From Patescibacteria group bacterium (GTDB lineage Bacteria > Patescibacteriota > Patescibacteriia > JAHIZJ01), in NCBI GenBank assembly GCA_028714495.1, contig JAQTMH010000001.1, positions 179,814 through 243,813 on the forward strand: a stretch of 64,000 bases of DNA. The letters run 5' to 3'. This document shows positions 8,778 to 49,133 of this stretch, piece by piece. The position numbers and the translations under genes are program-made. How positions within the stretch are numbered: position 1 is the first letter of the stretch; each line of letters opens with the position of its first letter. The notes under the pieces are model-generated. The model was given only the letters and a program-made list of their open reading frames with translations. It ran no database searches and was not told the DNA's origin.

Positions 8778-9303
8778 GACTTCCTCCCAAGAAATGAACG
8801 GCTAACCCCGGGTTTTTGCGCGGCGGTGCCTGTCCGCATTCCGGGTATTACCTGTTGGCACCGCTTTCTTTTTATCACATTGGGTTATTTTGTCAATACA
8901 AACTATATACGCAATCAAAGAAGTGATGTTTTCTTTATCCGCCTTTTTCGAAAAAATGTGACAAAAGCGCCGCCCCCAGACCTTCCTAGCCACTTTAGTG
9001 GCGTACCCGACTATCCCGCCATAGAGCGGGATCCCGCCTTCCTAAGATATTTTTATAATAAGGTGGCGGGAAATCGGTTTGAAGAAGAGCGGGCGGCGCT
9101 TTTCGTCAAGTTTCCGCACTCGAAGAAAATAAAAGCTCTCCTACCAAGTCGATAGCCATACAAGTCCGCAAATAACGCTGGCTTTTTATTATTTTGACTT
9201 GTTGGATAAAAGGTGATAATTTATTAGCTGCGTTCATTAACAGGAAAAGGGTCGGAAAACCCGAAGGTCAATAGACCGCCAGCCCAGGGAAGGAGGGGTA
9301 ATC

Positions 9304-10773: not shown

Positions 10774-11475
10774 ATGAAAGACCTCTCAAAGCTCGAAGCT
10801 ATCATCGGCTGTACGTTCAAAAATATCAAACTCCTGGAACAAAGCCTAGTTCACCGCTCGTATCTCAACGAGCATCCGGATTTTCCGCTGAAGCACAACG
10901 AGCGGATGGAATTTTTAGGCGACGCCGTACTGGAGTTGGCTGTCACCAGATACCTTTTTCAAAAGTTTCAAGAAAAATCCGAAGGCGAATTGACCAATTG
11001 GCGCGCCAGCCTGGTAAAAAGTGAAACACTGGCTGACACTGCCGAAAGTATCGATCTCAACGATTTTCTGTACCTAAGCCGGGGCGAGGCTAAAGATACC
11101 AATTCAAAAGCGCGGCGCTACATATTGGCCAACGCTCTCGAAGCTCTCATCGGCGCCATTTATCTCGATCAGGGGTTTGAAGCCGCCGAGAAATTCATTG
11201 GCAGCTTCTTGCTTACAAAACTGGACGATATCTTGCAGAATCATCTCTATCTCGATCCGAAGAGCCGCTTCCAGGAAAAAAGCCAGGAGATCGCCGGAAT
11301 CACACCTCACTATAAAGTGCTCTCCGAGTCCGGCCCTGATCACGCCAAACGTTTTAACATCGGAGTATTTCTGGGTGATGACGAGATCGCTGTCGGTGAG
11401 GGCGCCTCAAAACAAGAAGCCGAGGAAAGCGCGGCGCAGCGGGCGCTCAAAGCCAAAGACTGGAATGGCACTTAA
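10774..11475 (+). CDS. rnc: ribonuclease III
   Basis: RNase III signature ERMEFLGDAVLELAV and C-terminal dsRBD (GPDHAKRFNIGV...GASKQEAEESAAQRAL). Confidence 0.9.
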   Translation: MKDLSKLEAIIGCTFKNIKLLEQSLVHRSYLNEHPDFPLKHNERMEFLGDAVLELAVTRYLFQKFQEKSEGELTNWRASLVKSETLADTAESIDLNDFLYLSRGEAKDTNSKARRYILANALEALIGAIYLDQGFEAAEKFIGSFLLTKLDDILQNHLYLDPKSRFQEKSQEIAGITPHYKVLSESGPDHAKRFNIGVFLGDDEIAVGEGASKQEAEESAAQRALKAKDWNGT

Positions 11476-14245: not shown

Positions 14246-14738
14246 GGTACTAGATAAACTCATTTGATCCTAAACAATAAATTTTATTACCTAATCTTAG
14301 CCAAAATACCCTGTTGATAACTTATTGGCTCTAGGCATTGACAATTTGTCCGACATCTTCTATGCTTGGGGGCTTAGAAGACAAAACAAAATCTTTACAA
14401 TATAATATTAATAGTATCCGTGAGGCGATGAACTGCAGCCTGAATCTGGTCGCTTTCCCCCTAGAGTTTATTAAACTTTTGGGGGCGGGCTGCGGGGAGC
14501 TAGTAGCGAAACCGACATGGCGGAGGAAGTCCTTCGATACCAAAAACTGCCGCCGCCTCACGCCCAAGAGGCGTTTTTTGTTGGCCTGACCTTATTACCG
14601 GTTGCCTTTAGTGAAATACCTAAAGACAGCCGGTTTGTAAGGTTACTAAGCTCTTTGACAACACGGTGTAAGCGGAACAAAACGCCGAAATACAGCGCGA
14701 AGTTGTTTTCGGGGTTACCACAAAAAGGAGGACCGGTC

Positions 14739-15452
14739 ATGAAGCGCCTGTTTGTATTCTGTTTGGTGTTGACGTCCGTTCTGCTGGCCACGACGGCGAG
14801 TGGAGCGGATCGAGCCTTGGTTGAACGTACGCTGGTCTGGGTGGAGGGCAATCCCATTCCGCCGGACAGCACGCTCAATTCGTCAGGCTATCAATGGGGT
14901 GTTGCTCAAGACTCCCTGATTACCGTCAACGGATTCGTTGCCCAGGTTGCGCGCAAGCCGCCGGTAAAGGCCAAGGTGTATGCTGACACGCCCTACGGCC
15001 GTATGTGCGAGCGGGCTTTTGCCGCGGCAGTTTCGGCACGGGACCAGGGCAAGAACGATTGGGAAGCCGCTCAGGCTGGCGCGGCGGTCATGGAGAACGA
15101 ACGCAGCTTAGTCCGCTCAGCCAGTGTGATCGAGGGTGGATGGGAAGTCGAGTACACCAACGGCGAATCCGAATCATTCGAGCTGGGTCCGCCCGAGAAC
15201 AGAGGATCGCAAACGCCCCAAGAGAAGGCGGCGTTCTACCAGGAAGTTACCGACCAGGGCAAAATGATTGTGCTCGCATGGAATGGGGAGTGCAGATGGT
15301 TTCTGACACCGGCCAGCAGGGTGCTGTGGAACGAGCAGATTCTACGAGTATGGGACAACGAGCCGAACCCGCCTGGCCCTATGCCGCCACAGTTGGTGAG
15401 CCTGTTCTGTGATCCTACGCCCCTCAACCGCGAGAGCCACAAGGAGGAGTAA
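14739..15452 (+). CDS. secreted hypothetical protein (G+C-rich island)
   Basis: aaaaaggagga RBS; signal peptide MKRLFVFCLVLTSVLLATTASGA; track ORF starts earlier at 14517 but signal peptide and RBS favour 14739. Confidence 0.5.
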   Translation: MKRLFVFCLVLTSVLLATTASGADRALVERTLVWVEGNPIPPDSTLNSSGYQWGVAQDSLITVNGFVAQVARKPPVKAKVYADTPYGRMCERAFAAAVSARDQGKNDWEAAQAGAAVMENERSLVRSASVIEGGWEVEYTNGESESFELGPPENRGSQTPQEKAAFYQEVTDQGKMIVLAWNGECRWFLTPASRVLWNEQILRVWDNEPNPPGPMPPQLVSLFCDPTPLNRESHKEE

Positions 15453-15455
15453 GCC

Positions 15456-18284
15456 ATGAAGATCTCATTGATCTTGCTTGCGCTCCTTCTGATGTTCGGT
15501 TCAGCGGGAGCGACCAACCGCGATCCGGTCGGATCCTCGGCACTCCAGTATCATCCCTACGAATTTGGACTTGGGTGGGACGGACAGGAGTTCATCAATC
15601 TGGCGATTTCACAGGGACGAGACGCCATAGACTTCCATAACACCAGCGGAGGAAGCCAGATCCCGCAATGTGGTCTCGATCTGTTCAAGTGGTACCTAAA
15701 CGGCGGTCAAAGCGGATTCCGCGCGATTATCGAGGTGAGTACTCACGGCAACTCAAACCAGGCGACACATGAGGCCTTCCGCGACTCTACGAACAGAGAA
15801 ACCGCCTGGACATACCACTTACAGAACGGCTGGAGCACGACTGAGATCATCAGAACACAGTCGGTTGACGGCTATGGTATCGGCATCAAGGCGCCGGCCT
15901 TAGCCAGCCTATTCGACGGCGGCCACCAGGAGCTGGTCATCTATCACTCCTGCCATGCCTATGACTGGTTGAACACCGGGTACAACGATGCTCGGTGCGA
16001 GATCGGCTGTGTGGATTCAGACAACTGCCTGGTCAGTTACTTCTTGACACTGTTCAACCGGTTGGATGGACAGGAAGGACTGGAAAAGCGGGCGGTCAAT
16101 CAAGCGCTGTCTGGCTTAACATACCTCGGGTATCAGGGGAATGGCGAGACTGTGCTGGCCGCTTGCGTAACCAATGTCCTTCCGGCAGCCGGAACCGTGC
16201 TCACGGGAAACACTCAAGCAACTGTGTCTTTCGACACCGAGATGGACAATGATTTGTCATTCCGCTGGCCAGTAGTGATCGGAGACAATGCCCTAGTTGA
16301 TAATGTTGTTTGGTATCCGGACTACCTTGAGTTCACGCTGATACCCTATCGCGTCGGGCCAGTGACAGTTGAAATCCAGGCCTTGAGCAAGGGTGTAAAC
16401 GAACTGGATGGAAATCAAGTGCCGGTCGGTACGAACGGACAGGGTCCCAGCGAAGATCACTATGTGTTTTCGCTGACCAGCGCCGTCGATAACCCGAACA
16501 CTGCGGTGAGCTTTGAAGGCGCCGGAGCTTTCTCGGCCGAGGACGGCACCCACGTCTGGTGGGTAACCGATCCTGAGCTGGGTTCGCAACAGTTCGAAGT
16601 GTACGGCGGCGTAAACCGGTCACAACTCCTGGCTTCAGTGCCGGCGAGCGGCGGACCGGACCGGTCGTACTTCTACGAACTGGTCGTGCCGCCAAGCGAG
16701 TCGTATGAGGTGGTTGAGATCGACAATGATCCAACCACTGAATACTCGACCCGGCCGTTCTATCCGAGCGGCCCACCCGCGAACCTGGACCTTCTGCGCT
16801 CCATGAATGCCAAGTACGGCACGTGGACGCCCTGGGTATGGGAGGAGGGCGGACGGGATAACCCCATCTATGAACCGACCAACTTCGTCTACTACTCATC
16901 TCGGTCCGACTTTCTCGATCTCTGCCAGCCGGTCATCGACTGGTGGGAGGGCAAAGGTTTCACGTCGCAGGTAGTGACGGGAACCGAAAACCCCTACGAC
17001 TGCCAAGCGGTAGCAGAAGCTGTGTATAACGCGGCGATTGAGCATGAACTTCCCTGGCTGCCGTTTCTGGTGATCGTGGGCGAGGCCAACCAAGGGTCAG
17101 TCCCGGCTTACAATATAGTCGGGACAATCTACGTGGATGACGAAGACGATCAGTGTTACTGGTCAAGCTGCGCTTCTGATGCCAGCATCGTCGAGTTCGA
17201 TGGAGATAAGATCCCGAACATGCCGTGGAGTAGAGTGCCCGTTCACACGACCACGGAGCTGCAGTATGAAGTTACCTCGACCATGGAGTATTACGGACGG
17301 CTCCGGCCACAATCTCTGAGGGCAGTCATCTTCGACGGCGACCTGAACCCCAGCTGCAATCAGATGATCGAGCCGCGGGCCACGCTGACCATGATCCAAA
17401 CCCAGCTTGAAGCCGCAGGCATATCGACTGTGATGCTGAACGATTCTGACATTGAAGACTGCGGCGACATGGAAACACGGCACGACTGGGCTTGCGCGGA
17501 AATCAACGCCGGCATCACCGAACTGCTAGGCAATGGGTTTGGCACGAGCCGGTCGATTCTGCCAGGCTATTTCCAGGAAAAGATGTTCAATCCGGTCTTT
17601 ACCATGGCGGACCTGCCACGGTTGCAACGGATCGTGGTCGAATTTCCGGGTTGTGGCATGGGTGACATAGACCGGGACAATCCCTCCTATTACCCGTCCA
17701 TACCAAAGATGTATCTGACCGCGAATCCGGCCAACGGGACAACAGCAGTTGCCTGGATATCGCATTCCCGCGGCGGCCTACAATCTCTGCATCTGGCATT
17801 GGCTCGCGCCTATTTCGAGCAACGTGTTCGGTACCTGTATCGAACCGTGCAGGAAAACAACTTCCGGGCAATCCGACAGCTGGGTACGGAAAATCCGGCT
17901 GCTCGTGACTATCTCTTGATGGCCGGCGCCTATGGTTTCCCGGCGCGCATCGTCGAGATGTACGAAGCAGGAGCAACGCCGGAAACGGTTGCGGCCGATA
18001 TTCCGACCGGCTTGAGCATTAGTCCGAATCCGGTAGTCAGCAGCCTCAGCCATCTGTCTTTCGGGATGAAGGGCTATGGCCGCGTCGATCTGAAGCTCTA
18101 TGATATTCAGGGACGCTGTCAGCGGACCCTGGCTGACCGAGTTGTTCTTGAGCCCGGACTACACCGTATCGCGTGGGATGGACGCGACGACGCGGGTCGA
18201 TTGCTGTCAGCTGGCGTATACTACGCCCGGCTGTCGGTCAACCGGCATGATCGCGCGGCGGCGAAATTCGTGCTCGTGCGCTAG
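15456..18284 (+). CDS. large secreted protein with putative His/Cys (CD-clan-like) peptidase region and C-terminal beta-sandwich sorting-type domain (FlgD-Ig / Por_Secre_tail-like)
   Basis: aaggagg RBS; signal peptide MKISLILLALLLMFGSAGA; STHGN...VIYHSCHAYDW; C-terminus ...GRVDLKLYDIQGRCQRTLADRVVLEPGLHRIAWDGRDDAGRLLSAGVYYARL. Confidence 0.55.
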   Translation: MKISLILLALLLMFGSAGATNRDPVGSSALQYHPYEFGLGWDGQEFINLAISQGRDAIDFHNTSGGSQIPQCGLDLFKWYLNGGQSGFRAIIEVSTHGNSNQATHEAFRDSTNRETAWTYHLQNGWSTTEIIRTQSVDGYGIGIKAPALASLFDGGHQELVIYHSCHAYDWLNTGYNDARCEIGCVDSDNCLVSYFLTLFNRLDGQEGLEKRAVNQALSGLTYLGYQGNGETVLAACVTNVLPAAGTVLTGNTQATVSFDTEMDNDLSFRWPVVIGDNALVDNVVWYPDYLEFTLIPYRVGPVTVEIQALSKGVNELDGNQVPVGTNGQGPSEDHYVFSLTSAVDNPNTAVSFEGAGAFSAEDGTHVWWVTDPELGSQQFEVYGGVNRSQLLASVPASGGPDRSYFYELVVPPSESYEVVEIDNDPTTEYSTRPFYPSGPPANLDLLRSMNAKYGTWTPWVWEEGGRDNPIYEPTNFVYYSSRSDFLDLCQPVIDWWEGKGFTSQVVTGTENPYDCQAVAEAVYNAAIEHELPWLPFLVIVGEANQGSVPAYNIVGTIYVDDEDDQCYWSSCASDASIVEFDGDKIPNMPWSRVPVHTTTELQYEVTSTMEYYGRLRPQSLRAVIFDGDLNPSCNQMIEPRATLTMIQTQLEAAGISTVMLNDSDIEDCGDMETRHDWACAEINAGITELLGNGFGTSRSILPGYFQEKMFNPVFTMADLPRLQRIVVEFPGCGMGDIDRDNPSYYPSIPKMYLTANPANGTTAVAWISHSRGGLQSLHLALARAYFEQRVRYLYRTVQENNFRAIRQLGTENPAARDYLLMAGAYGFPARIVEMYEAGATPETVAADIPTGLSISPNPVVSSLSHLSFGMKGYGRVDLKLYDIQGRCQRTLADRVVLEPGLHRIAWDGRDDAGRLLSAGVYYARLSVNRHDRAAAKFVLVR

Positions 18285-18802: not shown

Positions 18803-21478
18803 ATGCATCTCCAGAAAATAGATATCCAGGGCTTTAAATCGTTCGCCAACAAAACCTCGATGGAATTCAATCGCGGAATTGCTGCTATTGTCGGGCCAAA
18901 CGGCTCGGGCAAATCAAACGTGGCCGACGCCATCCGCTGGGTCATGGGCGAGCAAAGTTTGAAGATCCTCCGCGGCAAAAAATCCGAGGATGTCATATTC
19001 TCCGGCTCAGACAAGAAGGCCCGTCTGGGCATGGCCGAAGTCACCCTACATATTAACAATGAGGACGGAGCCATGCCGATTGATTATCCCGAAGTGGCTA
19101 TCACGCGCCGGGTTTATCGGAACGGCGAGGCTGAATATCTTTTGAACAAACAGCGAGCCCGGCTTCAGGATATCATTTTGCTCTTGGCTAAATCTAACTT
19201 CGGCCAGCGGAGTTACTCGGTCATCGGCCAAGGAATGATCGATTCCATTCTGACTTCCAGTCCGCAGGAACGGAAGGATTTTTTTGACGAGGCGGCTGGC
19301 GTCCGACAGTTCCAAATCAAGCGCGAACAGGCCGAACAAAAACTCGAACGAACCAAAGACAATCTGCGGCAAGCCGATCTCCTGATGCAGGAAATCGAGC
19401 CGCGCCTGCGCTCCCTCACCCGCCAGGTTCGCCGCCTGGAGCGCCGGGAAACAATCGAGAGCGAGCTGCGAACCATCCAAAAGGAATACTATTCAAATCT
19501 CTGGAAAGAAATATCTGACGAACTGTCAAAAGTGCAAAATGAACAGTCAACCGCCAACCAAAAACATCAGCAGGCAGCCGCCAGCTTAAAAAAGGTGCAG
19601 CAGGAATTAGAAACGCTGGAAAAGGAAATTAGCCGGGAGGAGACATTTCGCCAACTTCAAAAAGAATACAACCGGATCCTGGACCAAAAAAATTCCCTGC
19701 TTCAAGACCAGGCCGTGCACAAAGCCCGTTGGGAGATCGAAGCGATCCAGGCCGGCGAGGTCAATCGCGTCTGGCTGGAGAAACGCATAGAGACTCTTAA
19801 CCGGCTGGCAAATGAAATTGTTGAGGATTTAAAACCGCTCCAGGCCAGCTTAATCGAAACTCAGAAAACGCTTGACGCAAAAAAGTCAGAGCAGGCAAAA
19901 ATTGTCAGTCAATTCGAGGAAATCGAAAAAAGATTGCTTCTGGCCAAAGAACGTCTGGAAAGCAAAAAGTCTATCGGCATGCCAGAAATCCAGGGACGCC
20001 TAACTGAGATCCAAAATAGCTACATTGAATTTATCGCCCGACTGGACCGTGCGACAACGCCTGAAGACGTGTCGAAGCTTAAACGCGCCGCCCGGGAAAT
20101 CCAGACTAATTTAAATAACTACATCAAAGAGCTCGGACGATCAGCGCCCGGCGCCACGCCGGAAGAGGTTTTAATACTGCAGAGCGAATTAACCAATTTT
20201 CTAAAAAGTAAGGACAGCTTAGTAAATGAAATAAACGAGTTGACTGTCAAACTGCGCACCCTCCAGGAAAAAGGCGGCCTTTTGCAAAACCAGCAAAACG
20301 AGGTTGAGGGCGAACTGAACCACCTGAAAAAAGAGATTGACCAGATTGACCAGCAGTCGAAATTGCCAGCCCAGGCTCGCGAATCCTACGAAAAAGACAG
20401 CGTGGAAATGGACCAACGTCTTCACGCGCTGGATCAGGAATTGAAAGTCGCTCGGGTAAAAATTACCGAATTTAACCAGGAAGAGCAAAAAAAGAAAGAT
20501 CATTTATTCAACCTTCAAAAAAGGTTCCGTGACGAGCAAAACAGCCTCAACGCCGTAACTCAAACACTGAATGAATTGCGCGTCAAACAGGTTAGGCTTG
20601 AAACCCGGCTCGACGATCTGGACCGGGAAATGAAAGAGGAAACGCCCGAGCCGATCCAGCAAGAAATAAAAGCTGATTTTGCCAAACTAATCGGCCAGTC
20701 TTCAAATTCTTTATTGCTAGATAAAATCCATCAACTAAAGCACCAGCTGGAGCTCACCGGAGGAATCGACGAGAACGTGACCGGTGAATATTCGCAAACA
20801 AACGAACGCTATACCTTCCTGAAAACCCAGTCGGATGATTTAAATAAAGCCATAATCTCTCTTGAGCAGGCTATCACCGATCTTGACGAAACCATCAAAC
20901 GCCAATTCGACGAATCGTTTCAAAAAATCAGCAAAGAATTTACAAAATATTTTAAAATGCTTTTCCGCGGCGGCAATGCCAAGCTGATTCTGCAGAAAAC
21001 CGATATTCTGGCCGAGGAAGAAAGCGACGACAATAGTGAAGACGAAGAAACGGAGGAGAAAGAAGAGGCTTCAGAGCCTGAACCGAAAAAAGTTATCGGC
21101 AAGGTTGTCTCAGGCATAGAAATCCAGGCTACTCCGCCGGGTAAAAGGCTCAGCAACGTCAATGTACTTTCCGGCGGTGAAAAAGCCCTCACTTCAATCG
21201 CCCTGATCTGCGCCATCATCGCCCATAATCCTTCGCCTTTCGTCGTTCTGGACGAAGTCGACGCCGCTCTGGATGAATCCAACTCAATCAAATTTTCAAG
21301 CATCCTTGACGAGCTTTCCCACAAAACCCAATTTATCACCATTACCCATAACCGCGCCACTATGTCAAAAGCCAATATCCTCTATGGCGTCACCATGCAG
21401 AGCGATGGGGTGTCAAAACTTCTCTCGGTTAAAATGGAGGAGGCAGAAGAGGTAATCAAACGGCATGGGAATAGGTGA
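18803..21478 (+). CDS. smc: chromosome segregation protein SMC (short form)
   Basis: N-terminal Walker A FKSFANKTSMEFNRGIAAIVGPNGSGKSNVADAIRWVMGEQS; long coiled coil; C-terminal LSGGEKALTSIALICAI...VVLDEVDAALD. Confidence 0.85.
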   Translation: MHLQKIDIQGFKSFANKTSMEFNRGIAAIVGPNGSGKSNVADAIRWVMGEQSLKILRGKKSEDVIFSGSDKKARLGMAEVTLHINNEDGAMPIDYPEVAITRRVYRNGEAEYLLNKQRARLQDIILLLAKSNFGQRSYSVIGQGMIDSILTSSPQERKDFFDEAAGVRQFQIKREQAEQKLERTKDNLRQADLLMQEIEPRLRSLTRQVRRLERRETIESELRTIQKEYYSNLWKEISDELSKVQNEQSTANQKHQQAAASLKKVQQELETLEKEISREETFRQLQKEYNRILDQKNSLLQDQAVHKARWEIEAIQAGEVNRVWLEKRIETLNRLANEIVEDLKPLQASLIETQKTLDAKKSEQAKIVSQFEEIEKRLLLAKERLESKKSIGMPEIQGRLTEIQNSYIEFIARLDRATTPEDVSKLKRAAREIQTNLNNYIKELGRSAPGATPEEVLILQSELTNFLKSKDSLVNEINELTVKLRTLQEKGGLLQNQQNEVEGELNHLKKEIDQIDQQSKLPAQARESYEKDSVEMDQRLHALDQELKVARVKITEFNQEEQKKKDHLFNLQKRFRDEQNSLNAVTQTLNELRVKQVRLETRLDDLDREMKEETPEPIQQEIKADFAKLIGQSSNSLLLDKIHQLKHQLELTGGIDENVTGEYSQTNERYTFLKTQSDDLNKAIISLEQAITDLDETIKRQFDESFQKISKEFTKYFKMLFRGGNAKLILQKTDILAEEESDDNSEDEETEEKEEASEPEPKKVIGKVVSGIEIQATPPGKRLSNVNVLSGGEKALTSIALICAIIAHNPSPFVVLDEVDAALDESNSIKFSSILDELSHKTQFITITHNRATMSKANILYGVTMQSDGVSKLLSVKMEEAEEVIKRHGNR

Positions 21479-25265: not shown

Positions 25266-26770
<1,505 letters not shown>

Positions 26771-26993: not shown

Positions 26994-27476
26994 CTAAACA
27001 AAAGACAAAACAAATCCGATTAATAGCCCAAAAACAAGAATAAAGCTGGCAAATTTCAATATTTTAGATTTCGGTTTTATCGAGTAATTCGTCATCGTCC
27101 AAATTTCGCGCATATATTCCTCGGCCATTTTATCGTCAGAATCGAATACCTTCTTCAATTTATCTTCGTATTCTTCGAGTCCTTTGTCCGAAAAACCCCA
27201 CCAGCAAATAAAACTAAGGCGTTCTTTCCGCTTTCCGCGAAAAGGAAGAAAAACAACAGTTATCGCCATAACGAGCGTAATAAAGGAGCTGATGGCCAGT
27301 ACCAAAAAATTTGAGGCCTCAATGCGAATCATACTCAATCCAAAGATAACCGCGGCGATGCCAACCAAGAAAGAAGCTTTCTGGTCCAAACTGCCCCGCA
27401 GGCTGTTTTGAAGAGTAAGTGAATCACGCAATAAATTAATCGAGTTTTGATTGACTACCATATTTTTATCGATCAA
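26994..27476 (-). CDS. hypothetical membrane protein
   Basis: 160-aa ORF with two central TM helices and one C-terminal TM helix; adjacent to tRNA cluster. Confidence 0.4.
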   Translation of the reverse strand: MIDKNMVVNQNSINLLRDSLTLQNSLRGSLDQKASFLVGIAAVIFGLSMIRIEASNFLVLAISSFITLVMAITVVFLPFRGKRKERLSFICWWGFSDKGLEEYEDKLKKVFDSDDKMAEEYMREIWTMTNYSIKPKSKILKFASFILVFGLLIGFVLSFV

Positions 27477-27570
27477 TTATCAAACTGCATAATCAAATTA
27501 TAACCATTAGTTTATCCATCGTTCTTGATTGGTCGGGGATCGCGGACTCGAACCGCGGACCTCTCGCTCC

Positions 27571-27846
27571 CCCGCCCGACTGCCATGTAATATTTCTGTC
27601 AAACTATTGGTTGGGACGGCGAGCCTCGGATTATAATCCGAGGGAAATTGCTGTCTTCCCGCACCGAGTCGGGGTGCGCGGACTTGAACCGCGGACCTCT
27701 CGCTCCCAAAGCGAGCGTTCTAGCCAACTGAACTACACCCCGACTCGAGGCAGGACGTGCTTCTGCACTACGCCCCGACCAATCGCTGGACTGAACAATT
27801 GTAATTATCAAAGTATAGAGCAACGTAAGCAGCCAGGGCGGGCGGG
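27571..27846 (-). other. 276-nt intervening sequence in tRNA-Pro carrying tRNA-Pro copy B; termini cccgcccg...cgggcggg
   Basis: begins cccgcccgccctggctgc and ends ggcagtcgggcggg in tRNA orientation; no ORF; no recognisable group I P/Q/R/S elements by eye. Confidence 0.5.
27669..27742 (-). tRNA. tRNA-Pro(TGG), intact, no encoded CCA, nested in the insertion
   Basis: cggggtg ta gttc agttggcta gaac g ctcgc tttggga gcgag aggtc cgcgg ttcaagt ccgcg caccccg a. Confidence 0.8.
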
Positions 27847-28046
27847 CAAAGCGAGCGTTCTAGCCAACTGAACTAATCCCCGATGAAAAAATCCCATGTT
27901 TGGGAAAAGCTTTTCTTGTTTTTATATTTTAAGCCTGTTTTTATTACCCGCTGGTGCCGAGGGCCGGAATCCCGCACCACGCAGGGTGCGGGACAAGTCG
28001 AACCAGCATAATTATGAAATGGGCCTCTTTAGTAATTCCGCCCAAA

Positions 28047-28119
28047 TGCCTGGGGTCGGAGTTGAACCGACGACGCAAGGATTTTCAGTCCTTCGCTCTA
28101 CCACCTGAGCTACCCAGGC
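28047..28119 (-). tRNA. tRNA-Phe(GAA), no encoded CCA
   Basis: gcctggg ta gctc aggtggta gagc g aagga ctgaaaa tcctt gcgtc gtcgg ttcaact ccgac cccaggc a; flanked by inverted repeat aattccgcccaaatgcc / ggcatttgggcggaatt. Confidence 0.85.
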
Positions 28120-28182
28120 AGGCATTTGGGCGGAATTGATTTCACAGTAGGATTATATTAGCATATTTCAGTCCGGAGTTCA

Positions 28183-28225
28183 CCCCGTGCTTGTCACGGG
28201 GCTCTACCGACTGAGCTACCTCGGC
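28183..28225 (-). pseudogene. tRNA 5'-half-like fragment fused to GC hairpin
   Basis: gccgagg ta gctc agtcggta gagc followed by perfect hairpin ccccgtg-acaag-cacgggg; no T-arm or acceptor 3' strand found. Confidence 0.35.
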
Positions 28226-28258
28226 AAGTGCCCACGGCACCAGCGGGAAATCAATATT

Positions 28259-28299
28259 TGGTGGGCGATCCAGGAGTCGAACCTGGGACCTCGTCATTA
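28259..28299 (-). pseudogene. tRNA 3'-half fragment (Ile-like), CCA encoded, no matching 5' half
   Basis: taatgacgag gtc ccagg ttcgact cctgg atcgccc a cca; closely resembles the 3' half of tRNA-Ile(GAT) at 28396-28472 but with a different acceptor. Confidence 0.45.
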
Positions 28300-28334
28300 C
28301 CCGCCCGACTGCTCCGCACTCGGAGGCGGGCGGG
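28300..28334. repeat. 35-nt palindromic element sharing termini with the tRNA-Pro intervening sequence
   Basis: cccgcccgactgctccgcactcggaggcgggcggg; termini cccgcccg/cgggcggg; same cccgcccgactgc start as the 276-nt insertion; abuts the tRNA 3' half in its anticodon-loop position. Confidence 0.5.
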
Positions 28335-28395
28335 TGACCCCGCACAACTCGCCAGAGCTCGTTTGCGGGGCAGGCGCGCTGAACTCACAGGCGGA

Positions 28396-28472
28396 TGGTG
28401 GGCATGGGAGGAGTCGAACCTCCGACCTCGTCATTATCAGTGACGCGCTCTAACCATCTGAGCTACATGCCC
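28396..28472 (-). tRNA. tRNA-Ile(GAT), CCA encoded
   Basis: gggcatg ta gctc agatggtta gagc g cgtca ctgataa tgacg aggtc ggagg ttcgact cctcc catgccc a cca; flanked by ggcggatggtg / caccatccgcc helix. Confidence 0.85.
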
Positions 28473-28807
28473 ACCATCCGCCCATGCTATGTTCTAAAAT
28501 ACACTTCCCGCCTCGCACTCGACGAATAACACGAGGAGTGGTTAGAATTAACCATCTGCTTGCCCTGAACCATTACAGTACAGGGCTTGCCCCGAACCGA
28601 ACGACCGAAGGGAGTTCTGGTTCGGGGAGCTAATCGCCCTCGATCGGTTTTTATGGGGGCACTCTGACTATCCAAATCATTTGCCAAAAAATGTACGGCA
28701 ACTCCCAAACTTTAACAGAAATAGAATGTTTTGACAAGGGGTGCTATAATAACTATAGACTATGGGTATTATCATAATAACTCGATAAAAAGTAAACATT
28801 CAATATA

Positions 28808-35788: not shown

Positions 35789-35899
35789 ACTGTCAATAAG
35801 ATTAATCTAGAACAGTTCTCCGCCCCCTAATAAAAAATCTAATAAACGGCGGATCCCCGCCAGCCGTCGGGCAGGCACCTTTGGCGGAGATGGACTTTA

Positions 35900-35936
35900 C
35901 CCCGCTGCTCGCGAGCGGCGGGGCCTACCCGCTCCA
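35900..35936 (+). repeat. GC hairpin fused to copy of tRNA-Gly(TCC) 3' acceptor end
   Basis: ccccgctgctcgcgagcggcgggg + cctacccgctcca; 12-nt direct repeat ctacccgctcca with the tRNA 3' end 147 bp upstream. Confidence 0.5.
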
Positions 35937-35981
35937 AATAATTAGATTCAATATATTTAATTCAATTCTAATTTAACATCA

Positions 35982-37604: not shown

Positions 37605-37888
37605 AAAATAGCAGATGTTTAAAAAATATTCTAAAGAGGGGGGTCCCCATTGCAGTCTAAGGAGCGAAGCGACTGTTTGCGCTGGGGCAAGGGGCATGCG
37701 CCCTAAAGGCGGGGTGGAAACAGCTTGTCTGCTTACATGCGGGGGATGCCTTTGTTCTATGTCGGGGCCTCCATCGCGGTCTAAGGAACGAGAAGTGACT
37801 GAACGCGATGGGGAGAGGGGGCGCCTTGCTAAGGGTGAAGCGAACCGGACACCTCCGGTGCGCGTAACCCGCAGCAAGTGCGAACCCG

Positions 37889-37974
37889 TGGTGCCCAGGG
37901 CGGGACTTGAACCCGCACCCTCTTGCGAGGCTAGGCCCTCAACCTAGTGTGTATACCAATTCCACCACCTGGGC
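37889..37974 (-). tRNA. tRNA-Leu(GAG), long variable arm, CCA encoded
   Basis: gcccagg tg gtgg aattggtat acac a ctagg ttgaggg cctag cctcgcaagagggt gcggg ttcaagt cccgc cctgggc a cca. Confidence 0.8.
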
Positions 37975-38240
37975 AGGTAGATTACCTCTTTACATTATTT
38001 AAAATAACAAATATTAGTATTATACCAACCCAGAACCACGAGGGGGTTCTGGGCCCCGCACCTAACATGGTGCGGGGTTCCACCACCTGGGCAGGTAGAT
38101 TAGCCCTTTACCTTATTTGAAATAACAATATCTGCAACATACCGATTTAAACCACGAAGGTTCTTGTTACCTATCATTAATATTACGAGATTCCGACAAG
38201 CCCTGAACCCAACGTGGTTCAGGGCACCACCTGGGCAATA
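37975..38240. repeat. two degenerate repeat units upstream of tRNA-Leu, each a GC hairpin plus copy of the tRNA-Leu 5' end
   Basis: ccaccacctgggca(g/a) recurs at about 37962, 38081 and 38226; hairpins ccagaacc-acgaggg-ggttctgg, ccccgcacc-taacatg-gtgcgggg, ccctgaaccc-aacg-tggttcaggg. Confidence 0.5.
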
Positions 38241-41085: not shown

Positions 41086-41637
41086 CTACCTTGGGGTGAC
41101 GGGTGCCGGCGAATGAGACAGATAATACTTAGCGGATTCTCGAGAAATGTGCAGACCCGAACAAAGGCGGGCCCTGAGCTTGACGACCTGGAAATCAGAC
41201 CTTTCCGGGTCATCAGTCAATTCGATCTCATCCCAGTGATGAGTAATCAGTCCAGCCATGGCGGCTTCTTTCACCCGATAGGCCATAAGCGCCTCTGGAC
41301 AATGAATCGGCTCATCTCCATGAAGCTTAGCCAACACATTGCCTATGGTGTTAGCCAAAACAGCGATTTCATACAGCTCCGAAGCCAAATCTAGGGCATC
41401 AATCTCTAGTTCCTTGAAGGCCTGACCGAACGGCTCTAGGTCTTCAAACGTAAGCCGTTCCTTCGTTCGCTGGAGACATTCCCTCAATAGAAGACGGCCT
41501 AGTGGTGAGACTAATAGTTCTTTGGCTCCGTGGTATCTCCTAACTAGATCATGGAAATCGTCCGGGTTCAGCTGATGGGCTGGTTTACCGAAAAAACTCC
41601 TAACCGGGGTATGCCTTCTATGCGGTTTGCGTTTCAT
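41086..41637 (-). CDS. hypothetical protein (G+C-rich patch adjoining tRNA-Val)
   Basis: track ORF runs into tRNA-Val; internal start MKRKPHRRH preferred; no family recognised. Confidence 0.35.
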   Translation of the reverse strand: MKRKPHRRHTPVRSFFGKPAHQLNPDDFHDLVRRYHGAKELLVSPLGRLLLRECLQRTKERLTFEDLEPFGQAFKELEIDALDLASELYEIAVLANTIGNVLAKLHGDEPIHCPEALMAYRVKEAAMAGLITHHWDEIELTDDPERSDFQVVKLRARLCSGLHISRESAKYYLSHSPAPVTPR

Positions 41638-41730
41638 GGCGCTTCTCCTTCTCTTCCGATGGGCTGTTCTAAAAAGAACGAGGGTTGTATGTGCTCGGGT
41701 GGGCGGGGTGATCTCCATCCCCCATCTTCC

Positions 41731-41807
41731 TGGTGCGCGTACCTGGACTTGAACCAGGGACCTCCACAATGTCAATGTGGCGCTCTAACCAACTGAGCTA
41801 TACGCGC
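41731..41807 (-). tRNA. tRNA-Val(GAC), CCA encoded
   Basis: gcgcgta ta gctc agttggtta gagc g ccaca ttgacat tgtgg aggtc cctgg ttcaagt ccagg tacgcgc a cca; flanked by ccatcccccatcttcc / ggaagatgggggat helix; partial copy aatgtggcgctctaaccaac plus hairpin cccccgtgaaaacggggg upstream. Confidence 0.85.
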
Positions 41808-42071
41808 GCACTAGGAAGATGGGGGATCAATGTGGCGCTCTAACCAACCTTGCCCCCGTGAAAACGGGGGTGAGCTAGACGCCCACCTGAACAAACAAAA
41901 TAAATTTAACGACATACATAATCACTTCTTACCTCATAGTGAGCATGCCCCGGATTATCCCCGATTAAATCGGGGACGGGGGACCCCCTGCCTTATAGCG
42001 ACGCTTCTGATATTATGGAAAGGTGTTGTAGCGTCGATATATCGATGACCTACCTATTTATTCACATTCTC

Positions 42072-42148
42072 ATGGTGGGCATGGATGGATTTGAACCATC
42101 GACCCCCGTCTTATAAGGGCGGTGCTCTAACCGCTGAGCTACATGCCC
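42072..42148 (-). tRNA. tRNA-Ile with TAT anticodon (tentative), CCA encoded
   Basis: gggcatg ta gctc agcggtta gagc a ccgcc cttataa gacgg gggtc gatgg ttcaaat ccatc catgccc a cca; same acceptor as tRNA-Ile(GAT); one C-A mismatch in anticodon stem. Confidence 0.6.
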
Positions 42149-42273
42149 ACCATGAGAATTAAATTGTATAGGTCATCGCTATAAGGGCGGTGTCCCGATC
42201 GGCTTGGCCGCGTCAAGACTGCCTACCCCAAAATATGCCCTAACTTTCCGCCAAATATATTCAATTTCTGTGG

Positions 42274-43260
42274 CTATCTTACTCCTGGCTGAGATTTCCG
42301 TCCAGCCAGACGTTCTGCCCACATTATTATTTTGCTCAACTTTTTTCCTTGGTCCAGTTTGAGAAAAAACAGTACCCAGGCGCTAAATTGAAAAGACGAG
42401 AGAACAGAGCCAACGAATACCGTAACCAGAAGAATAATAGCCGTCAGGACGTAGAGCAAAACATTGCTGGCGCCGGCCATACCCTGACTTAAAATCACAA
42501 CCAGGAGAAGGAACGGAACAGAAACTATTACCAGTACAATTATCAAACCGAGGCTGACAATAAAATTAATAACGAATATTATTACGGCCATCTCGATACT
42601 GGCCAGCCAATTTTTTATAAAAAGCTTCCAGCCTGACCGCACTGCCTCAGTCAGAGTTTGGCCCCGGGCGACCACGTAGCAAGCCGCGTATTTTGCCACA
42701 AAGCCAATAATCAAGCTAACGGCGAATGAAAGTAAAATCATTATCACGCTGACCACCACTCCAATAACCCCAAAAGCCACCAGCGAGGCGACCAAACCAG
42801 TCAGGATCAAGAAAATATAGTCAGCGATTTTCGCCAAAAGATAGACAATAAGGTTTTTCCAAAAATGTTTCTGGCCGATGGCAAAGGCTTGATTATACGC
42901 AACCGCCTTGCCGTTTTCAGCCTGGATCGTACTGTGGATTATCCCGCCCACCGAAATTACCGTCAGCCAAACCACTAGGATTAAAAGTAAAACAAACACC
43001 AGCATGACCACCACCGCGGTCAATGTGGTCGAGCTCACCAGTCCCCAGGCATCGGAAAATATTCCGCCAAAACCGCTTTTAAAAAGCTCACGCCAGCTGT
43101 CTAGAGATAGGGAACCCTCGGTTTGAAGATAATAATTCCTGATAAGAGTCTCAACCTCCTGGCCAATCCAGACCAGAAACAATCCAAAAAACCACAAAAA
43201 TTTATTGCGCCAAATGATTCTCCAGGCTTTTTTAATAATGTCGTTGTAAATGGAAACCAT
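42274..43260 (-). CDS. hypothetical polytopic membrane protein
   Basis: 328 aa, six or more TM helices. Confidence 0.45.
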   Translation of the reverse strand: MVSIYNDIIKKAWRIIWRNKFLWFFGLFLVWIGQEVETLIRNYYLQTEGSLSLDSWRELFKSGFGGIFSDAWGLVSSTTLTAVVVMLVFVLLLILVVWLTVISVGGIIHSTIQAENGKAVAYNQAFAIGQKHFWKNLIVYLLAKIADYIFLILTGLVASLVAFGVIGVVVSVIMILLSFAVSLIIGFVAKYAACYVVARGQTLTEAVRSGWKLFIKNWLASIEMAVIIFVINFIVSLGLIIVLVIVSVPFLLLVVILSQGMAGASNVLLYVLTAIILLVTVFVGSVLSSFQFSAWVLFFLKLDQGKKLSKIIMWAERLAGRKSQPGVR

Positions 43261-48534: not shown

Positions 48535-48715
48535 TTCTCTACCCTCCTTCTTGGCTTTTTTGGCCCAGATTTATCAAAGAACAAGGTCCTTTCCCAGTAA
48601 TTTGACCTTAGGCCGATTAGTTTAAAATGTCAATATAAAAACAAAACAACGGGGGTTAATAATCCCTGTCGTCTTTATTTAGTGTACCTCTTCCACTATC
48701 TAAGCGTTTATTGAC

Positions 48716-49110: not shown

Positions 49111-49133
49111 ATCAGCTTCCAAAGCGTGGGAAC

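What the first reader, a model, noticed from the sequence alone, without database searches (positions are those of the whole stretch)
28259..28334. A 35-nt palindromic mini-element with the same termini as the tRNA-Pro insertion abuts an orphan tRNA 3' half
The sequence cccgcccgactgctccgcactcggaggcgggcggg (28300-28334) has 8-bp inverted termini, cccgcccg and cgggcggg. It also opens with the same cccgcccgactgc as the 276-nt insertion in tRNA-Pro. It sits at the anticodon-loop position of a tRNA-Ile-like 3' half (taatgacgag...atcgccc a cca, 28259-28299). The matching 5' half is not present. The 35-mer therefore looks like the minimal core of an element family whose larger member carries a tRNA as cargo. 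The shared termini and the shared target position (tRNA anticodon loop) argue for a mechanistic link, either a conserved splice-site helix or a transposition footprint.
Basis: seen in the sequence. Interest (0 to 1): 0.8.

Follow-up and report, generated by a model that had tools for sequence, protein, structure and literature searches.

The report
Hairpin-ended inserts nesting tRNA genes
The 35-base palindrome is the empty, collapsed form of a family of GC-rich, hairpin-ended DNA inserts that split tRNA genes of this tiny (Patescibacteria) bacterium at the anticodon and usually bring a working copy of the same tRNA with them, leaving tRNA genes nested inside dead tRNA genes.

Summary
The sequence facts hold. 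The 35-mer (28300-28334) is a stable hairpin. It abuts a tRNA-Ile 3' half at the anticodon loop and shares both ends (CCCGCCCGCC ... GCAGTCGGGCGGG) with the 276-nt insert that splits a tRNA-Pro gene.

One claim is wrong. The Ile 3' half is not orphan: its 5' start (GGGCGATTAGCTC, 28639->28627) lies upstream, and an intact tRNA-Ile(GAT) sits between them.

The window comes from a Patescibacteria genome. By a strict test, 7 of its 11 tRNA genes carry relic pieces of a second copy, and most of those relics hold CCC...GGG hairpins in former tRNA loops.

The same termini bound inserts in tRNA-Ile (35/36) and tRNA-Val (37/38) of relatives. They also bound a 30-nt mini hairpin in a relic tRNA-Ala that sits beside a decayed GIY-YIG nuclease gene.

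No group I/II intron signal and no bulge-helix-bulge motif were found.

Best reading: mobile, hairpin-ended, tRNA-replacing cassettes, with the 35-mer as a cargo-less remnant. Endonuclease-driven homing is inferred from relatives only. I found no published description of this arrangement.

The parts
28300..28334 (-). 35-nt hairpin mini-element. Its 5' arm is CCCGCCCGCC (28334->28325). An inner mini-hairpin TCCG-AGTG-CGGA follows. Its 3' arm is GCAGTCGGGCGGG (28312->28300).
   Evidence: The termini are identical to those of the tRNA-Pro insert. The first 22 nt match, 19 of 22, the 5' end of the ~400-nt insert in tRNA-Ile of L087.
28259..28299 (-). 3' half (T36 to CCA) of a relic tRNA-Ile(GAT): TAATGACGAGGTCCCAGGTTCGACTCCTGGATCGCCCACCA.
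   Evidence: Its acceptor strand ATCGCCC pairs with GGGCGAT at 28639->28633. The orthologous junction ...GGGCAGG|TAATGACGAGG is present in L087.
28335..28395 (-). Trailer TCCGCC, then a degenerate Ile D-arm/anticodon-stem piece TGTGAGTTCAGCGCGCCTG, then a 33-nt hairpin (28338-28370), then TCA.
   Evidence: This block is conserved in L087, with compensatory changes in the hairpin (CCCCGC..GCGGGG versus CCCCGT..ACGGGG).
28396..28472 (-). Intact tRNA-Ile(GAT), the presumed working gene, lying between the relic halves.
   Evidence: ARAGORN; Rfam tRNA 75.3 bits.
28473..28486 (-). Leader CATGGGCGGATGGT. It pairs 14 of 14 with ACCATCCGCCTGTG (the discriminator-CCA end of the tRNA plus its trailer) and so extends the acceptor stem.
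28559..28639 (-). 5' start of the relic tRNA-Ile (GGGCGATTAGCTC), interrupted in the D loop by two hairpin+CAAG units (28590-28627 and 28562-28586).
   Evidence: It aligns with the outermost Ile 5' half of L087, which carries a hairpin at the same place.
27847..27882 (-). 5' half of the outer tRNA-Pro(TGG), ending ...CTCGCTTTG (through G35).
27571..27846 (-). 276-nt insert in the anticodon (35/36, or 34/35 by a one-base slide) of the outer tRNA-Pro. It starts CCCGCCCGCC and ends GCAGTCGGGCGGG. It also holds a degenerate middle-shell Pro fragment (CGGGGCGTAGTGCAG...).
   Evidence: It has no Rfam intron match.
27668..27742 (-). Intact inner tRNA-Pro(TGG) with no encoded CCA. It is bracketed by a leader-trailer helix (13 of 15 paired).
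27530..27570 (-). 3' half of the outer tRNA-Pro, GGAGCGAG...ATCCCCGACCA.
   Evidence: The joined halves give a perfect cloverleaf. The acceptor stem differs from the inner copy by compensatory changes.
27952..28225 (-). Nested tRNA-Phe locus between the Ile and Pro loci. The relic outer Phe is in two pieces (28225->28164 and 28007->27952), with hairpins at 25/26 and in the T loop. It encloses an intact tRNA-Phe(GAA) at 28046-28120, flanked by the inverted repeat AATTCCGCCCAAATGCC/GGCATTTGGGCGGAATT.
   Evidence: The same architecture is seen in L087.

Best explanation
The 35-mer is the cargo-less, collapsed form (the two termini joined) of a family of GC-rich, hairpin-ended insertion cassettes found in one clade of Patescibacteria.

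A full cassette is bounded by inverted termini (consensus CCCGCCCGCC ... GGCGGGCGGG) that pair into a stem flush with the break. It sits inside a tRNA gene, usually in the middle of the anticodon loop (35/36). It carries an intact tRNA of the same identity, bracketed by its own leader-trailer helix.

Shown:
- The architecture itself.
- Precise insertion without target duplication.
- The same termini at five places, in four tRNA species and three genomes.
- Presence/absence differences among relatives.
- An intact copy accompanying every interrupted gene.

Inferred:
- The inner tRNA does the work.
- The split outer gene is a relic that decays and collects further CCC...GGG hairpins in its former loops.
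- Cassettes spread by break-induced copying (homing), using the conserved tRNA halves as homology arms. The break is possibly made by small GIY-YIG nucleases, whose genes lie inside the same kind of tRNA duplications in relatives.
- Later loss of the nuclease gene and of the interior leaves termini-only remnants such as the 35-mer.
- The leader-trailer helices probably let RNase III free the inner pre-tRNA from the surrounding relic RNA.
For: - Same termini in the Pro insert and the 35-mer.
- Homologous termini flush with the anticodon loop in relatives. L087 tRNA-Ile(GAT) at 35/36 encloses about 400 nt with an intact tRNA-Ile. L217 tRNA-Val(GAC) at 37/38 has a 3' terminus that is the exact complement of CCCGCCCGCC. 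L217 also has a 30-nt mini hairpin in a relic tRNA-Ala.
- In about 197 kb of close-relative DNA, 8 of 12 family 10-mers lie at tRNA(-relic) junctions.
- The joined outer Pro halves give a perfect tRNA.
- Nesting is pervasive and clade-specific. A strict 13-mer test finds relic fragments beside 7 of 11 tRNAs in the window and beside 0-3 tRNAs per close-relative locus. It finds them beside only 1 of about 45 tRNAs in more distant loci.
- 15 of 26 CCC...GGG hairpins lie in the 5.8% of the window made up of tRNA loci (p = 1e-12).
- Presence/absence polymorphism: in L081 the Cys, Gly and Val(GAC) genes are uninterrupted.
- Different alleles in the two shells. The outer Cys acceptor stem of the window (GGCGTGG) equals the only Cys of L083, while the inner one (GGCCAGG) equals the Cys of L081 and L086. 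The 3' end of the outer Cys abuts tRNA-Gly as the L081 gene does, so the outer copy is the resident gene.
- The outer Val is chimeric: resident-like acceptor stem and inner-like anticodon stem. This is what co-conversion would produce.
- GIY-YIG genes inside tRNA duplications of relatives. L216 has intact Val(TAC), then an ORF, then hairpins, then a relic Val(TAC). L083 has one next to Gly(GCC). L217 has a pseudogene between a relic Ala (with the mini hairpin) and the intact Ala.
- The phage GIY-YIG enzyme SegB cuts within tRNA genes and drives tRNA segment duplication (PMC13096335).
- Leader-trailer helices occur on nested tRNAs only. For Ile(TAT) they covary in 12 pairs, and 0 of 500 shuffles reach the observed score.
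- An RNase III gene lies at 10774-11475.
Against: - No nuclease, transposase, integrase or reverse transcriptase gene was found in the window.
- The GIY-YIG proteins of relatives are catalytic domain only (86-111 aa) and reach only sub-threshold scores for the homing-endonuclease family. Small proteins of this kind are common in bacteria, so their position could be coincidental.
- None of them lies in a cassette with the CCCGCCCGCC termini, except next to the L217 mini hairpin.
- Outer relics are retained across genomes whose FtsH proteins are only 76-79% identical, with compensatory changes in their hairpins. That is unexpected for dead DNA in a small genome and could mean a function.
- Whether the 35-mer arose by deletion of the interior or by separate insertion cannot be decided.
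- The insert position is not uniform (34/35, 35/36, 37/38, D arm).
- No whole genome was available, so I cannot show that every interrupted tRNA has an intact partner genome-wide.
Confidence: 0.5

Rival explanations
1. The inserts are a new kind of bacterial tRNA intervening sequence removed at the RNA level. For example, the flush GC stem could be cut by RNase III or another nuclease and the halves rejoined by a ligase. Outer tRNAs such as the outer tRNA-Pro would then be functional, and the 35-mer would be a minimal intron.
For: - The joined outer tRNA-Pro halves are a perfect cloverleaf with CCA.
- Inserts sit at 35/36, the site of the self-splicing group I introns described in Patescibacteria (PMC13011429).
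- Hairpins sit at loop apices, where a structured RNA tolerates additions.
- Hairpins keep their pairing through compensatory changes.
- RNase III is encoded in the window.
Against: - No group I/II intron match even at E<=10, and 35 nt is far too short for a ribozyme.
- No bulge-helix-bulge motif.
- Most outer copies cannot make a tRNA after the inserts are removed. The Ile relic fails ARAGORN and lacks 3 loop bases. The outer Val lacks a T arm. The outer Phe lacks the 3' strand of its anticodon stem.
- Every interrupted gene has an intact copy inside it or beside it.
- No ligase or splicing endonuclease gene was seen in the window.
Confidence: 0.08
2. The GC stems are functional leader-trailer (processing or insulating) helices of pre-tRNAs. 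The relic halves come from ordinary duplication and recombination between tRNA copies. The shared termini reflect gene conversion between neighbouring loci, not mobility. On this view the 35-mer is a leader-trailer stem left behind after the tRNA between its arms was deleted.
For: - Leader-trailer helices covary strongly and are limited to nested tRNAs.
- In L217 the termini are themselves the leader-trailer helix of the inner tRNA-Val.
- The Pro and Ile loci of the window lie only about 700 nt apart, so conversion between them is conceivable.
- RNase III is present.
Against: - The same 10-mer termini occur in different tRNA species and different genomes (window Pro and Ile, L087 Ile, L217 Val and Ala). 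Local conversion does not explain that.
- Nesting (5' half, full gene, 3' half) is not the product of simple tandem duplication or single-crossover recombination.
- Inner and outer copies carry different alleles.
- Un-nested tRNAs in the same genomes lack such helices, so they are not a general processing requirement.
Confidence: 0.2
3. The hairpins are REP/MITE-like palindromic repeats moved in trans by a transposase encoded elsewhere (for example a RAYT or IS200/IS605-type enzyme acting on single-stranded hairpins). On this view they accumulate in dead tRNA copies by chance or by structural preference, and the tRNA duplications have a separate cause.
For: - They are short GC-rich palindromes present in several near-identical copies. 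TCCCCGATTAAATCGGGGA occurs at 41958 and at 55089. CCCCGC(C/T)GCTCGCGAGCGGCGGGG occurs at 35900 and 48728.
- A subset carries a constant CAAG tail, reminiscent of the tetranucleotide head of REPs.
- They lack target duplications, as IS200/IS605-type elements do.
- A few copies lie outside tRNA loci (9013-9071 and 55089).
Against: - No such transposase gene lies in the window or in the fetched relatives' loci.
- This reading does not explain why the large members enclose an intact tRNA of the same identity as the gene they split.
- It does not explain why the same termini bound both the large and the mini forms.
- The sequences are far more varied than typical REP families.
Confidence: 0.17
4. 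The resemblance is chance between generic GC-rich hairpins or terminators, or it is an assembly artefact of a metagenome-assembled genome.
For: The termini have low complexity (C and G only). A collection-wide search for the 5' arm returned only chance matches in high-GC contigs.
Against: - There is an exact 13-mer plus an exact 10-mer shared at equivalent junctions. The 13-mer occurs only twice in 64 kb.
- The same junction recurs in independent assemblies (L083, L084 and L085 come from three samples) and in different MAGs.
- Enrichment at tRNA loci has p = 1e-12.
Confidence: 0.03

Closest known systems
Free-standing GIY-YIG homing endonuclease cassettes that duplicate part of their target gene. 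Examples: phage T4/T6 SegB in tRNA clusters (PMC13096335; Brok-Volchanskaya 2008, cited there), and, from my own knowledge, the endonuclease ORF plus atp6 3'-end element of Allomyces mitochondria.
   Same: A selfish insert disrupts a conserved gene but brings a replacement copy, leaving the resident piece as a relic. tRNA genes are the target. Relatives show intact, decayed and absent nuclease genes at such sites, as in a homing cycle.
   Different: Here a whole tRNA is nested inside the anticodon loop of its cognate gene. The cassettes are 100-400 nt and are bounded by conserved inverted GC-rich termini. The window has no nuclease gene. The relatives' GIY-YIG proteins lack a DNA-binding domain, and their activity is untested.
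Group I introns at position 35/36 of Patescibacteria tRNA genes (Nakagawa et al. 2026, PMC13011429).
   Same: Same phylum, same kind of host gene and the same unusual insertion position in the anticodon. ARAGORN listed none of the interrupted copies as a tRNA, and the paper reports that standard annotation tools miss its intron-containing genes.
   Different: No group I core is detectable. The insert ends pair with each other rather than forming P1 and P10. Sizes go down to 30-35 nt. The insert contains another tRNA. The host tRNAs are Pro, Ile, Val and Cys rather than Asn and Asp.
Archaeal multiple and non-canonical tRNA introns and split tRNAs (Thermoproteales, Nanoarchaeum; reviewed in PMC4033280 and PMC4390854).
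   Same: Short inserts at D-loop, anticodon-loop and T-loop positions of tRNA genes. GC-rich complementary sequences lie at the break points. Intron mobility between tRNA genes has been proposed.
   Different: The host is a bacterium (16S rRNA, cobalamin and c-di-GMP-II riboswitches). There is no bulge-helix-bulge motif, no splicing endonuclease gene was seen, interrupted copies are often incomplete, and an intact copy is always present.
REP/BIME palindromic repeats and MITEs; mobile GC clusters and double-hairpin elements of fungal mitochondria (from my own knowledge).
   Same: Short GC-rich palindromes in an otherwise moderate-GC genome, present as multiple related copies, with no coding capacity. 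They insert into structured RNA genes or between genes.
   Different: These show a strong bias to tRNA(-relic) loops. The larger members carry a tRNA. No target duplication and no partner transposase were found.
Leader-trailer helices of rRNA precursors (PMC11404451).
   Same: Complementary flanks form a long covarying helix around a stable RNA. RNase III is encoded.
   Different: They flank single tRNAs, they pair with the encoded ACCA end, and they occur only on nested tRNAs.

Membership tests
Group I intron | Conserved catalytic core (P3-P9) recognisable by the Rfam covariance model. | tested here: not met
   No Intron_gpI match at the gathering score, nor at E<=10 in 27400-28700, nor at E<=1 in L087 850-2100.
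Group I intron | 5' exon ends in U, intron ends in G, and the length is about 200 nt or more. | tested here: not met
   All inserts end in G. The Pro junction can be read as U|...G after a one-base slide. The Ile junction in L087 is A|, and the mini forms are only 30-35 nt.
Group II intron | Domains V/VI or a reverse-transcriptase ORF. | tested here: not met
   No Rfam match. No RT domain was found in the ORFs scanned.
Archaeal/eukaryal endonuclease-spliced tRNA intron | Bulge-helix-bulge (or relaxed hBH) motif at the exon-intron junctions. | tested here: not met
   Folding the junctions gives a flush GC stem with a 4-nt one-sided internal loop. There are no staggered 3-nt bulges.
Archaeal/eukaryal endonuclease-spliced tRNA intron | Splicing endonuclease and ligase encoded in the genome. 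| not testable with these tools
   None was found among about 40 window ORFs scanned. The rest of the genome could not be fetched.
MITE / IS-derived element | Terminal inverted repeats and multiple related copies. | tested here: met
   The termini CCCGCCCGCC/GGCGGGCGGG bound five elements in three genomes.
MITE / IS-derived element | Target-site duplication. | tested here: not met
   The Pro insert is precise, and the joined flanks give an exact 7-nt anticodon loop with no repeat. No repeat was seen at the Ile or Val junctions either.
MITE / IS-derived element | Cognate autonomous element with a transposase. | tested here: inconclusive
   None was found in the window or in the fetched loci of relatives. 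Whole genomes were not available.
REP/BIME with RAYT | A 20-40-nt imperfect GC-rich palindrome with a conserved tetranucleotide next to it. | tested here: inconclusive
   A subset carries a CAAG tail (window 28586-28589, 28559-28562, 41849-41852 and 55108-55111; L086 and L087). The 35-mer and many other copies do not.
REP/BIME with RAYT | RAYT (Y1 transposase) gene in the genome. | not testable with these tools
   Not seen in the window.
Homing-endonuclease gene-replacement cassette (SegB-like) | Endonuclease gene inside or next to the duplicated target. | tested here: inconclusive
   Met in relatives: L216 10801-11136, L083 6530-6805, and the L217 pseudogene at 19048-19155. Not met in the window (tblastn E>0.8).
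Homing-endonuclease gene-replacement cassette (SegB-like) | Duplicate of the target gene, with the resident copy left as a relic, and presence/absence among relatives. | tested here: met
Homing-endonuclease gene-replacement cassette (SegB-like) | Site-specific cleavage of the uninterrupted allele; a full-length homing enzyme with a DNA-binding domain. | tested here: not met
   The proteins are 86-111 aa and contain the catalytic domain only. TIGR01453 scores are 16.6-28.2 bits against a cut-off of 56. Cleavage activity is not testable here.
Leader-trailer processing helix | Complementary flanks that covary across species. | tested here: met
   For Ile(TAT) in 7 genomes, 86.5% of cells are paired, 12 pairs change on both sides, 0 of 500 shuffles reach the observed score, and slid controls give 32-47%.
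Integrative element at a tRNA 3' end | Direct repeat of the tRNA 3' end plus an integrase. | tested here: not met
   Direct 3'-end repeats exist at the two Gly loci, but no integrase gene lies in the window. The 35-mer and the Pro insert are in the anticodon loop and have inverted, not direct, ends.

The most novel reading that the evidence does not exclude
The hairpin-ended inserts are a previously unknown class of protein-dependent intervening sequences in bacterial tRNAs. On this reading the flush GC stem is cut out of the precursor and the halves are religated. Outer tRNAs such as the split tRNA-Pro would then be functional, and an intron would deliver a second tRNA from its interior.
Probability: 0.07. 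Interest if true: 0.95.

Novelty: new variant of a known kind. Interest (0 to 1): 0.68.

Why it matters
- If the reading is right, tRNA genes in a clade of ultra-small bacteria are repeatedly invaded by miniature cassettes that destroy the resident gene while delivering a replacement. The result is 'Russian-doll' tRNA loci up to three shells deep.
- That would be a compact form of selfish gene replacement (addiction by substitution) acting on the most conserved genes of a reduced genome. It would also be a route for tRNA alleles to move between lineages.
- It affects annotation. ARAGORN reported only the intact copies as tRNA genes and gave one spurious call, and relic halves can be mistaken for split or intron-containing genes.
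- It offers testable material on three questions: how small GIY-YIG nucleases choose targets, whether hairpin loops in DNA or RNA are preferred insertion sites, and why leader-trailer helices evolve around tRNAs.

Tried and rejected
1. Group I/II intron: rejected by Rfam scans at permissive thresholds.
2. Bulge-helix-bulge intron: rejected by folding the junctions.
3. Collection-wide search for the element (CCCGCCYGCCN{0,5}GAGTGCGGA in metagenome contigs).
4. GTDB representative genomes. The source genome is absent and the best FtsH identity is 67%. The tRNA loci inspected by eye in L002 and L003 look normal, and the strict test found a relic beside only 1 of about 45 tRNAs across these loci (L068).
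5. An exact look-up of the window's FtsH found nothing. Closer relatives had to be reached through protein hits.
6. Homologues of the neighbouring HAMP protein. Only L087 kept synteny with the 16S-Pro-Phe-Ile cluster. L088, L090 and L211-L214 did not.
7. Search for a GIY-YIG gene or remnant in the window: none.
8. The conserved orphan ORF next to the nested tRNA-Val (41086-41637). It has only three close homologues. The AlphaFold model is confident (pLDDT 87) but has no significant PDB match, so there is no sign of a nuclease.
9. A common target sequence at the junctions: none found (CTTTG|GGAG, ACTGA|TAAT, TGACA|TTGT, GTAGA|GCAT).
10. A sister MAG with about 90% identity in that ORF exists (P0161, contig of 115,098 bp).
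Full report
**What is at the coordinates.** All tRNA genes of this region are on the minus strand. Read on that strand, 28334->28300 is CCCGCCCGCCTCCGAGTGCGGAGCAGTCGGGCGGG. It is followed at once by TAATGACGAGGTCCCAGGTTCGACTCCTGGATCGCCCACCA (28299->28259), a tRNA-Ile 3' half that begins at T36 of the anticodon loop. The 35-mer folds into a hairpin: an 8-bp outer stem, a small internal loop, and a 4-5-bp inner stem. The energy is -24.1 kcal/mol as RNA (z -3.4) and -14.8 as DNA (z -4.05).

A 276-nt insert (27846->27571) splits a tRNA-Pro(TGG) gene. It starts with the same CCCGCCCGCC and ends with the same GCAGTCGGGCGGG. The 13-mer occurs only at these two places in the 64 kb. Joining the Pro flanks (27882->27847 and 27570->27530) gives a perfect tRNA-Pro with CCA, so the insertion is precise and leaves no target duplication. 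The break lies at 35/36, or 34/35 by a one-base slide. Inside the insert lies an intact tRNA-Pro(TGG) (27742->27668), together with a degenerate third copy.

The Ile 3' half is not orphan. Its acceptor strand ATCGCCC is matched by GGGCGATTAGCTC at 28639->28627, which is the start of a tRNA-Ile whose D loop carries two hairpin+CAAG units. Between that start and the 35-mer lie three things:
- an intact tRNA-Ile(GAT) (28472->28396), wrapped in a 14-bp leader-trailer helix;
- a degenerate Ile piece (28389->28371);
- another 33-nt hairpin (28370->28338).

The Ile locus therefore has the same nested plan as the Pro locus. It is further decayed: with the 35-mer removed it is no longer a tRNA, and about three loop bases are missing. 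ARAGORN's 'tRNA-???' at 28259-28354 is an artefact.

**The phenomenon is general in this genome.** The window comes from a Patescibacteria (CPR) metagenome-assembled genome. It has a bacterial 16S rRNA, cobalamin and c-di-GMP-II riboswitches, and FtsH identical to an NCBI Patescibacteria MAG.

By a strict test (a 13-nt exact match to non-tRNA DNA within 800 nt), 7 of its 11 tRNA genes are accompanied by fragments of a second copy of themselves. More are visible by eye:
- tRNA-Phe, Val(GAC), Ile(TAT) and Cys are nested in the anticodon loop of a relic copy.
- tRNA-Leu is preceded by two further 5' starts.
- The two tRNA-Gly genes are followed by a second 3' end.

The relic copies are peppered with GC-rich hairpins that start CCC and end GGG, sitting in what were the D, anticodon and T loops. 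Of 26 such hairpins in the window, 15 lie in the 5.8% of sequence made up of tRNA loci (p = 1e-12). Intact tRNAs never carry them.

**Relatives.** I fetched seven loci from genomes whose FtsH is 75-79% identical; gene order is conserved. They show the same kind of nesting at some tRNAs and not at others. L081 has uninterrupted Cys, Gly and Val(GAC) genes. The strict relic test is positive for 0-3 tRNAs per close-relative locus. Among about 45 tRNAs of more distant Patescibacteria and Chloroflexi loci it is positive only once.

Three observations bear directly on the 35-mer.
1. In L087 the orthologous tRNA-Ile(GAT) cluster has an outermost Ile gene split at 35/36 (…GTCACTGA|CCCGCCTGCCGGAGTGCGGAC… …GGTGGGCAGG|TAATGACGAGG…). 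The insert is about 400 nt and contains an intact tRNA-Ile. The first 22 nt of the window's 35-mer match that 5' end at 19 of 22 positions, and the insert-end|TAATGACGAGG junction has its counterpart there (...GGGCAGG| in L087 versus ...GGGCGGG| in the window).
2. In L217 a tRNA-Val(GAC) is split at 37/38 by CCCGCGCGCC…[intact tRNA-Val]…GGCGGGCGGG. Its 3' end is the exact complement of CCCGCCCGCC.
3. In L217 a 30-nt mini hairpin with the same ends (CCCGCCCGGCATGCCGTCGTGGCAGGCGGG) sits in the D arm of a relic tRNA-Ala.

The termini family therefore bounds both full and empty elements, in four tRNA species and three genomes. That argues for copying of a defined sequence rather than for convergent GC stems. 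Whether the window's 35-mer arose by loss of the interior or by a separate insertion cannot be settled.

**Not an intron by any known route.**
- Rfam finds no group I or II intron at the gathering score, nor at E<=10 over the region, nor in the L087 cluster.
- The junction folds into a stem flush with the exons and a one-sided 4-nt loop, not a bulge-helix-bulge.
- Most outer copies could not yield a tRNA even if every insert were removed.
- Each interrupted gene comes with an intact one.

The position 35/36 is nevertheless the site at which self-splicing group I introns were recently described in Patescibacteria tRNA-Asn and tRNA-Asp (PMC13011429). That coincidence is unexplained.

**Which copy is resident.**
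- The 3' end of the window's outer tRNA-Cys abuts tRNA-Gly(GCC), as the single Cys gene of L081 does. Its acceptor stem (GGCGTGG) is that of L083's only Cys. The inner copy (GGCCAGG) matches the Cys of L081 and L086.
- The inner tRNA-Pro and tRNA-Phe lack an encoded CCA, whereas their outer copies have it.
- The outer tRNA-Val of the window and of L083 has a resident-type acceptor stem but the anticodon-stem strand of the inner allele. This is the mosaic expected if a cassette was copied into a resident gene with co-conversion of the flanks.
- The outer tRNA-Pro is pristine while a middle shell inside the insert is badly decayed. That fits a cassette recently copied into a fresh gene better than steady ageing from the outside in.

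**A candidate driver, seen only in relatives.**
- In L216 an intact tRNA-Val(TAC) is followed by a GIY-YIG ORF, two hairpins, and a relic Val(TAC) running from the D loop to CCA.
- In L083 a homologous ORF follows tRNA-Gly(GCC).
- In L217 a pseudogene of the same family, with an in-frame stop, lies between the relic tRNA-Ala that carries the mini hairpin and the intact tRNA-Ala.

These proteins are only 86-111 aa and score below threshold for the intron-endonuclease family, so their role is a lead, not a result. The precedent is phage SegB, a GIY-YIG enzyme that cuts within tRNA genes and drives recombination-dependent duplication of tRNA segments (PMC13096335). The window itself has no such gene and no transposase, integrase or reverse transcriptase among the ORFs scanned.

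**Leader-trailer helices.** Nested tRNAs, and only those, are bracketed by flanks that extend the acceptor stem by 10-18 bp. The extension pairs even with the encoded ACCA, through a TGGT in the leader. For tRNA-Ile(TAT) the helix is kept in five of seven genomes. Twelve pairs change on both sides, 0 of 500 shuffles reach the observed score, and slid controls pair at 32-47% against 86.5%. RNase III is encoded at 10774-11475. I infer that these helices insulate and release the inner pre-tRNA from relic RNA that is partly complementary to it. In L217 the family termini are themselves this helix, so the 'mobile element' and 'processing helix' readings overlap.

**Verdict.** The splice-helix alternative is not supported. 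The best explanation (about 0.5) is a family of hairpin-ended, tRNA-replacing insertion cassettes, with the 35-mer as a cargo-less remnant; spread by break-induced copying is inferred. Rivals:
- pure processing helices plus gene conversion (0.2);
- REP/MITE-like repeats moved by an unseen transposase (0.17);
- a new RNA-level intervening sequence (0.08);
- chance or artefact (0.03).

Six literature searches found no description of nested tRNA genes with such termini in bacteria.

Noticed in passing
window 41650-41900 (minus strand): tRNA-Val(GAC) (41731-41807) is nested at 35/36 of a relic Val gene. The relic has a hairpin+CAAG in its D loop and has lost its T arm. The insert is bounded by TCCCCCATCTTCC/GGAAGATGGGGGA. 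The same junction is present in L083. The D-loop hairpin is kept in L086 with compensatory changes.
   Followed up: yes
window 41940-42280 (minus strand): tRNA-Ile(TAT) (42073-42148) is nested at 35/36 of a degenerate Ile(TAT) relic (insert ends TAGCGA.../...TCGCTA). Remnants of this nest occur in all close relatives, and L215 has three shells.
   Followed up: partly
window 48990-49230 (minus strand): tRNA-Cys(GCA) (49036-49110) is nested at 34/35 of a relic Cys gene (insert ends TCCCGCC.../...GCGGGA). The outer and inner copies are different alleles, each matching different relatives.
   Followed up: yes
window 37889-38240 (minus strand): tRNA-Leu(GAG) is preceded by two extra 5' starts (GCCCAGGTGGTG...), each cut off in the D loop by one or two CCC...GGG hairpins. 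Two long, similar hairpins follow the gene (37650-37830).
   Followed up: no
window 35789-35940 (+) and 48700-48833 (-): Both tRNA-Gly genes are followed, about 100-130 nt downstream, by a near-identical hairpin CCCCGC(C/T)GCTCGCGAGCGGCGGGG fused to a second copy of the tRNA 3' end. In L083 the equivalent space after tRNA-Gly(GCC) holds a GIY-YIG gene.
   Followed up: partly
window 41086-41637 (minus strand): A 183-aa orphan ORF lies directly downstream of the nested tRNA-Val. It has only three close homologues among 5.8 billion proteins, plus a 28%-identical ORF at the same place in L215. It is absent from other relatives. The AlphaFold model is confident and mostly helical, with no PDB match.
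   Followed up: yes
window 8965-9104: Two adjacent CCC...GGG-type hairpins (9013-9032 and 9032-9071; the second resembles the one in the Cys insert at 49138-49172) are enclosed by a 13-bp inverted repeat AAAAGCGCCGCCC/GGGCGGCGCTTTT. The region is intergenic, has no Rfam match and has no tRNA nearby. It may be an empty cassette or a disrupted unknown RNA.
   Followed up: no
window 55089-55107: The hairpin TCCCCGATTAAATCGGGGA plus CAAG is identical to the one in the relic Ile(TAT) T loop (41958-41976). Here it lies just upstream of nrdR, outside any tRNA locus.
   Followed up: no
window 25266-26770: A complete 16S rRNA gene has no 23S, 5S or spacer tRNAs after it. The next features are an oppositely oriented small gene and the tRNA cluster. 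The same 16S-Pro-Phe-Ile adjacency is seen in L087.
   Followed up: partly
window 26994-27476 (minus strand): A 160-aa membrane protein with a borderline match to the Pycsar effector transmembrane family (PycTM, 27.6 bits against a cut-off of 27.2). It lies next to the outer tRNA-Pro 3' half.
   Followed up: no
window 14412-14526 and 51468-51659: A c-di-GMP-II (GAG variant) riboswitch lies ahead of the ORFs at 14517-18284 (the second carries a peptidase C25 domain). A cobalamin riboswitch lies ahead of the DUF4430/DUF6580 genes.
   Followed up: no
L083 16828-18390 and L068 15419-15616: In L083 a large serine recombinase gene overlaps the start of tRNA-Leu(GAG), which suggests an integrated element there. 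In a distant Yanofskybacteria locus (L068), tRNA-Leu(GAG) also has fragments of itself on both sides, so nesting may occur outside this clade.
   Followed up: no
window 27892-27905 (minus strand): A terminator-like hairpin with a T run ends three bases before the outer tRNA-Pro 5' half. If it works, the outer 5' half would not be transcribed from the upstream Phe locus.
   Followed up: no
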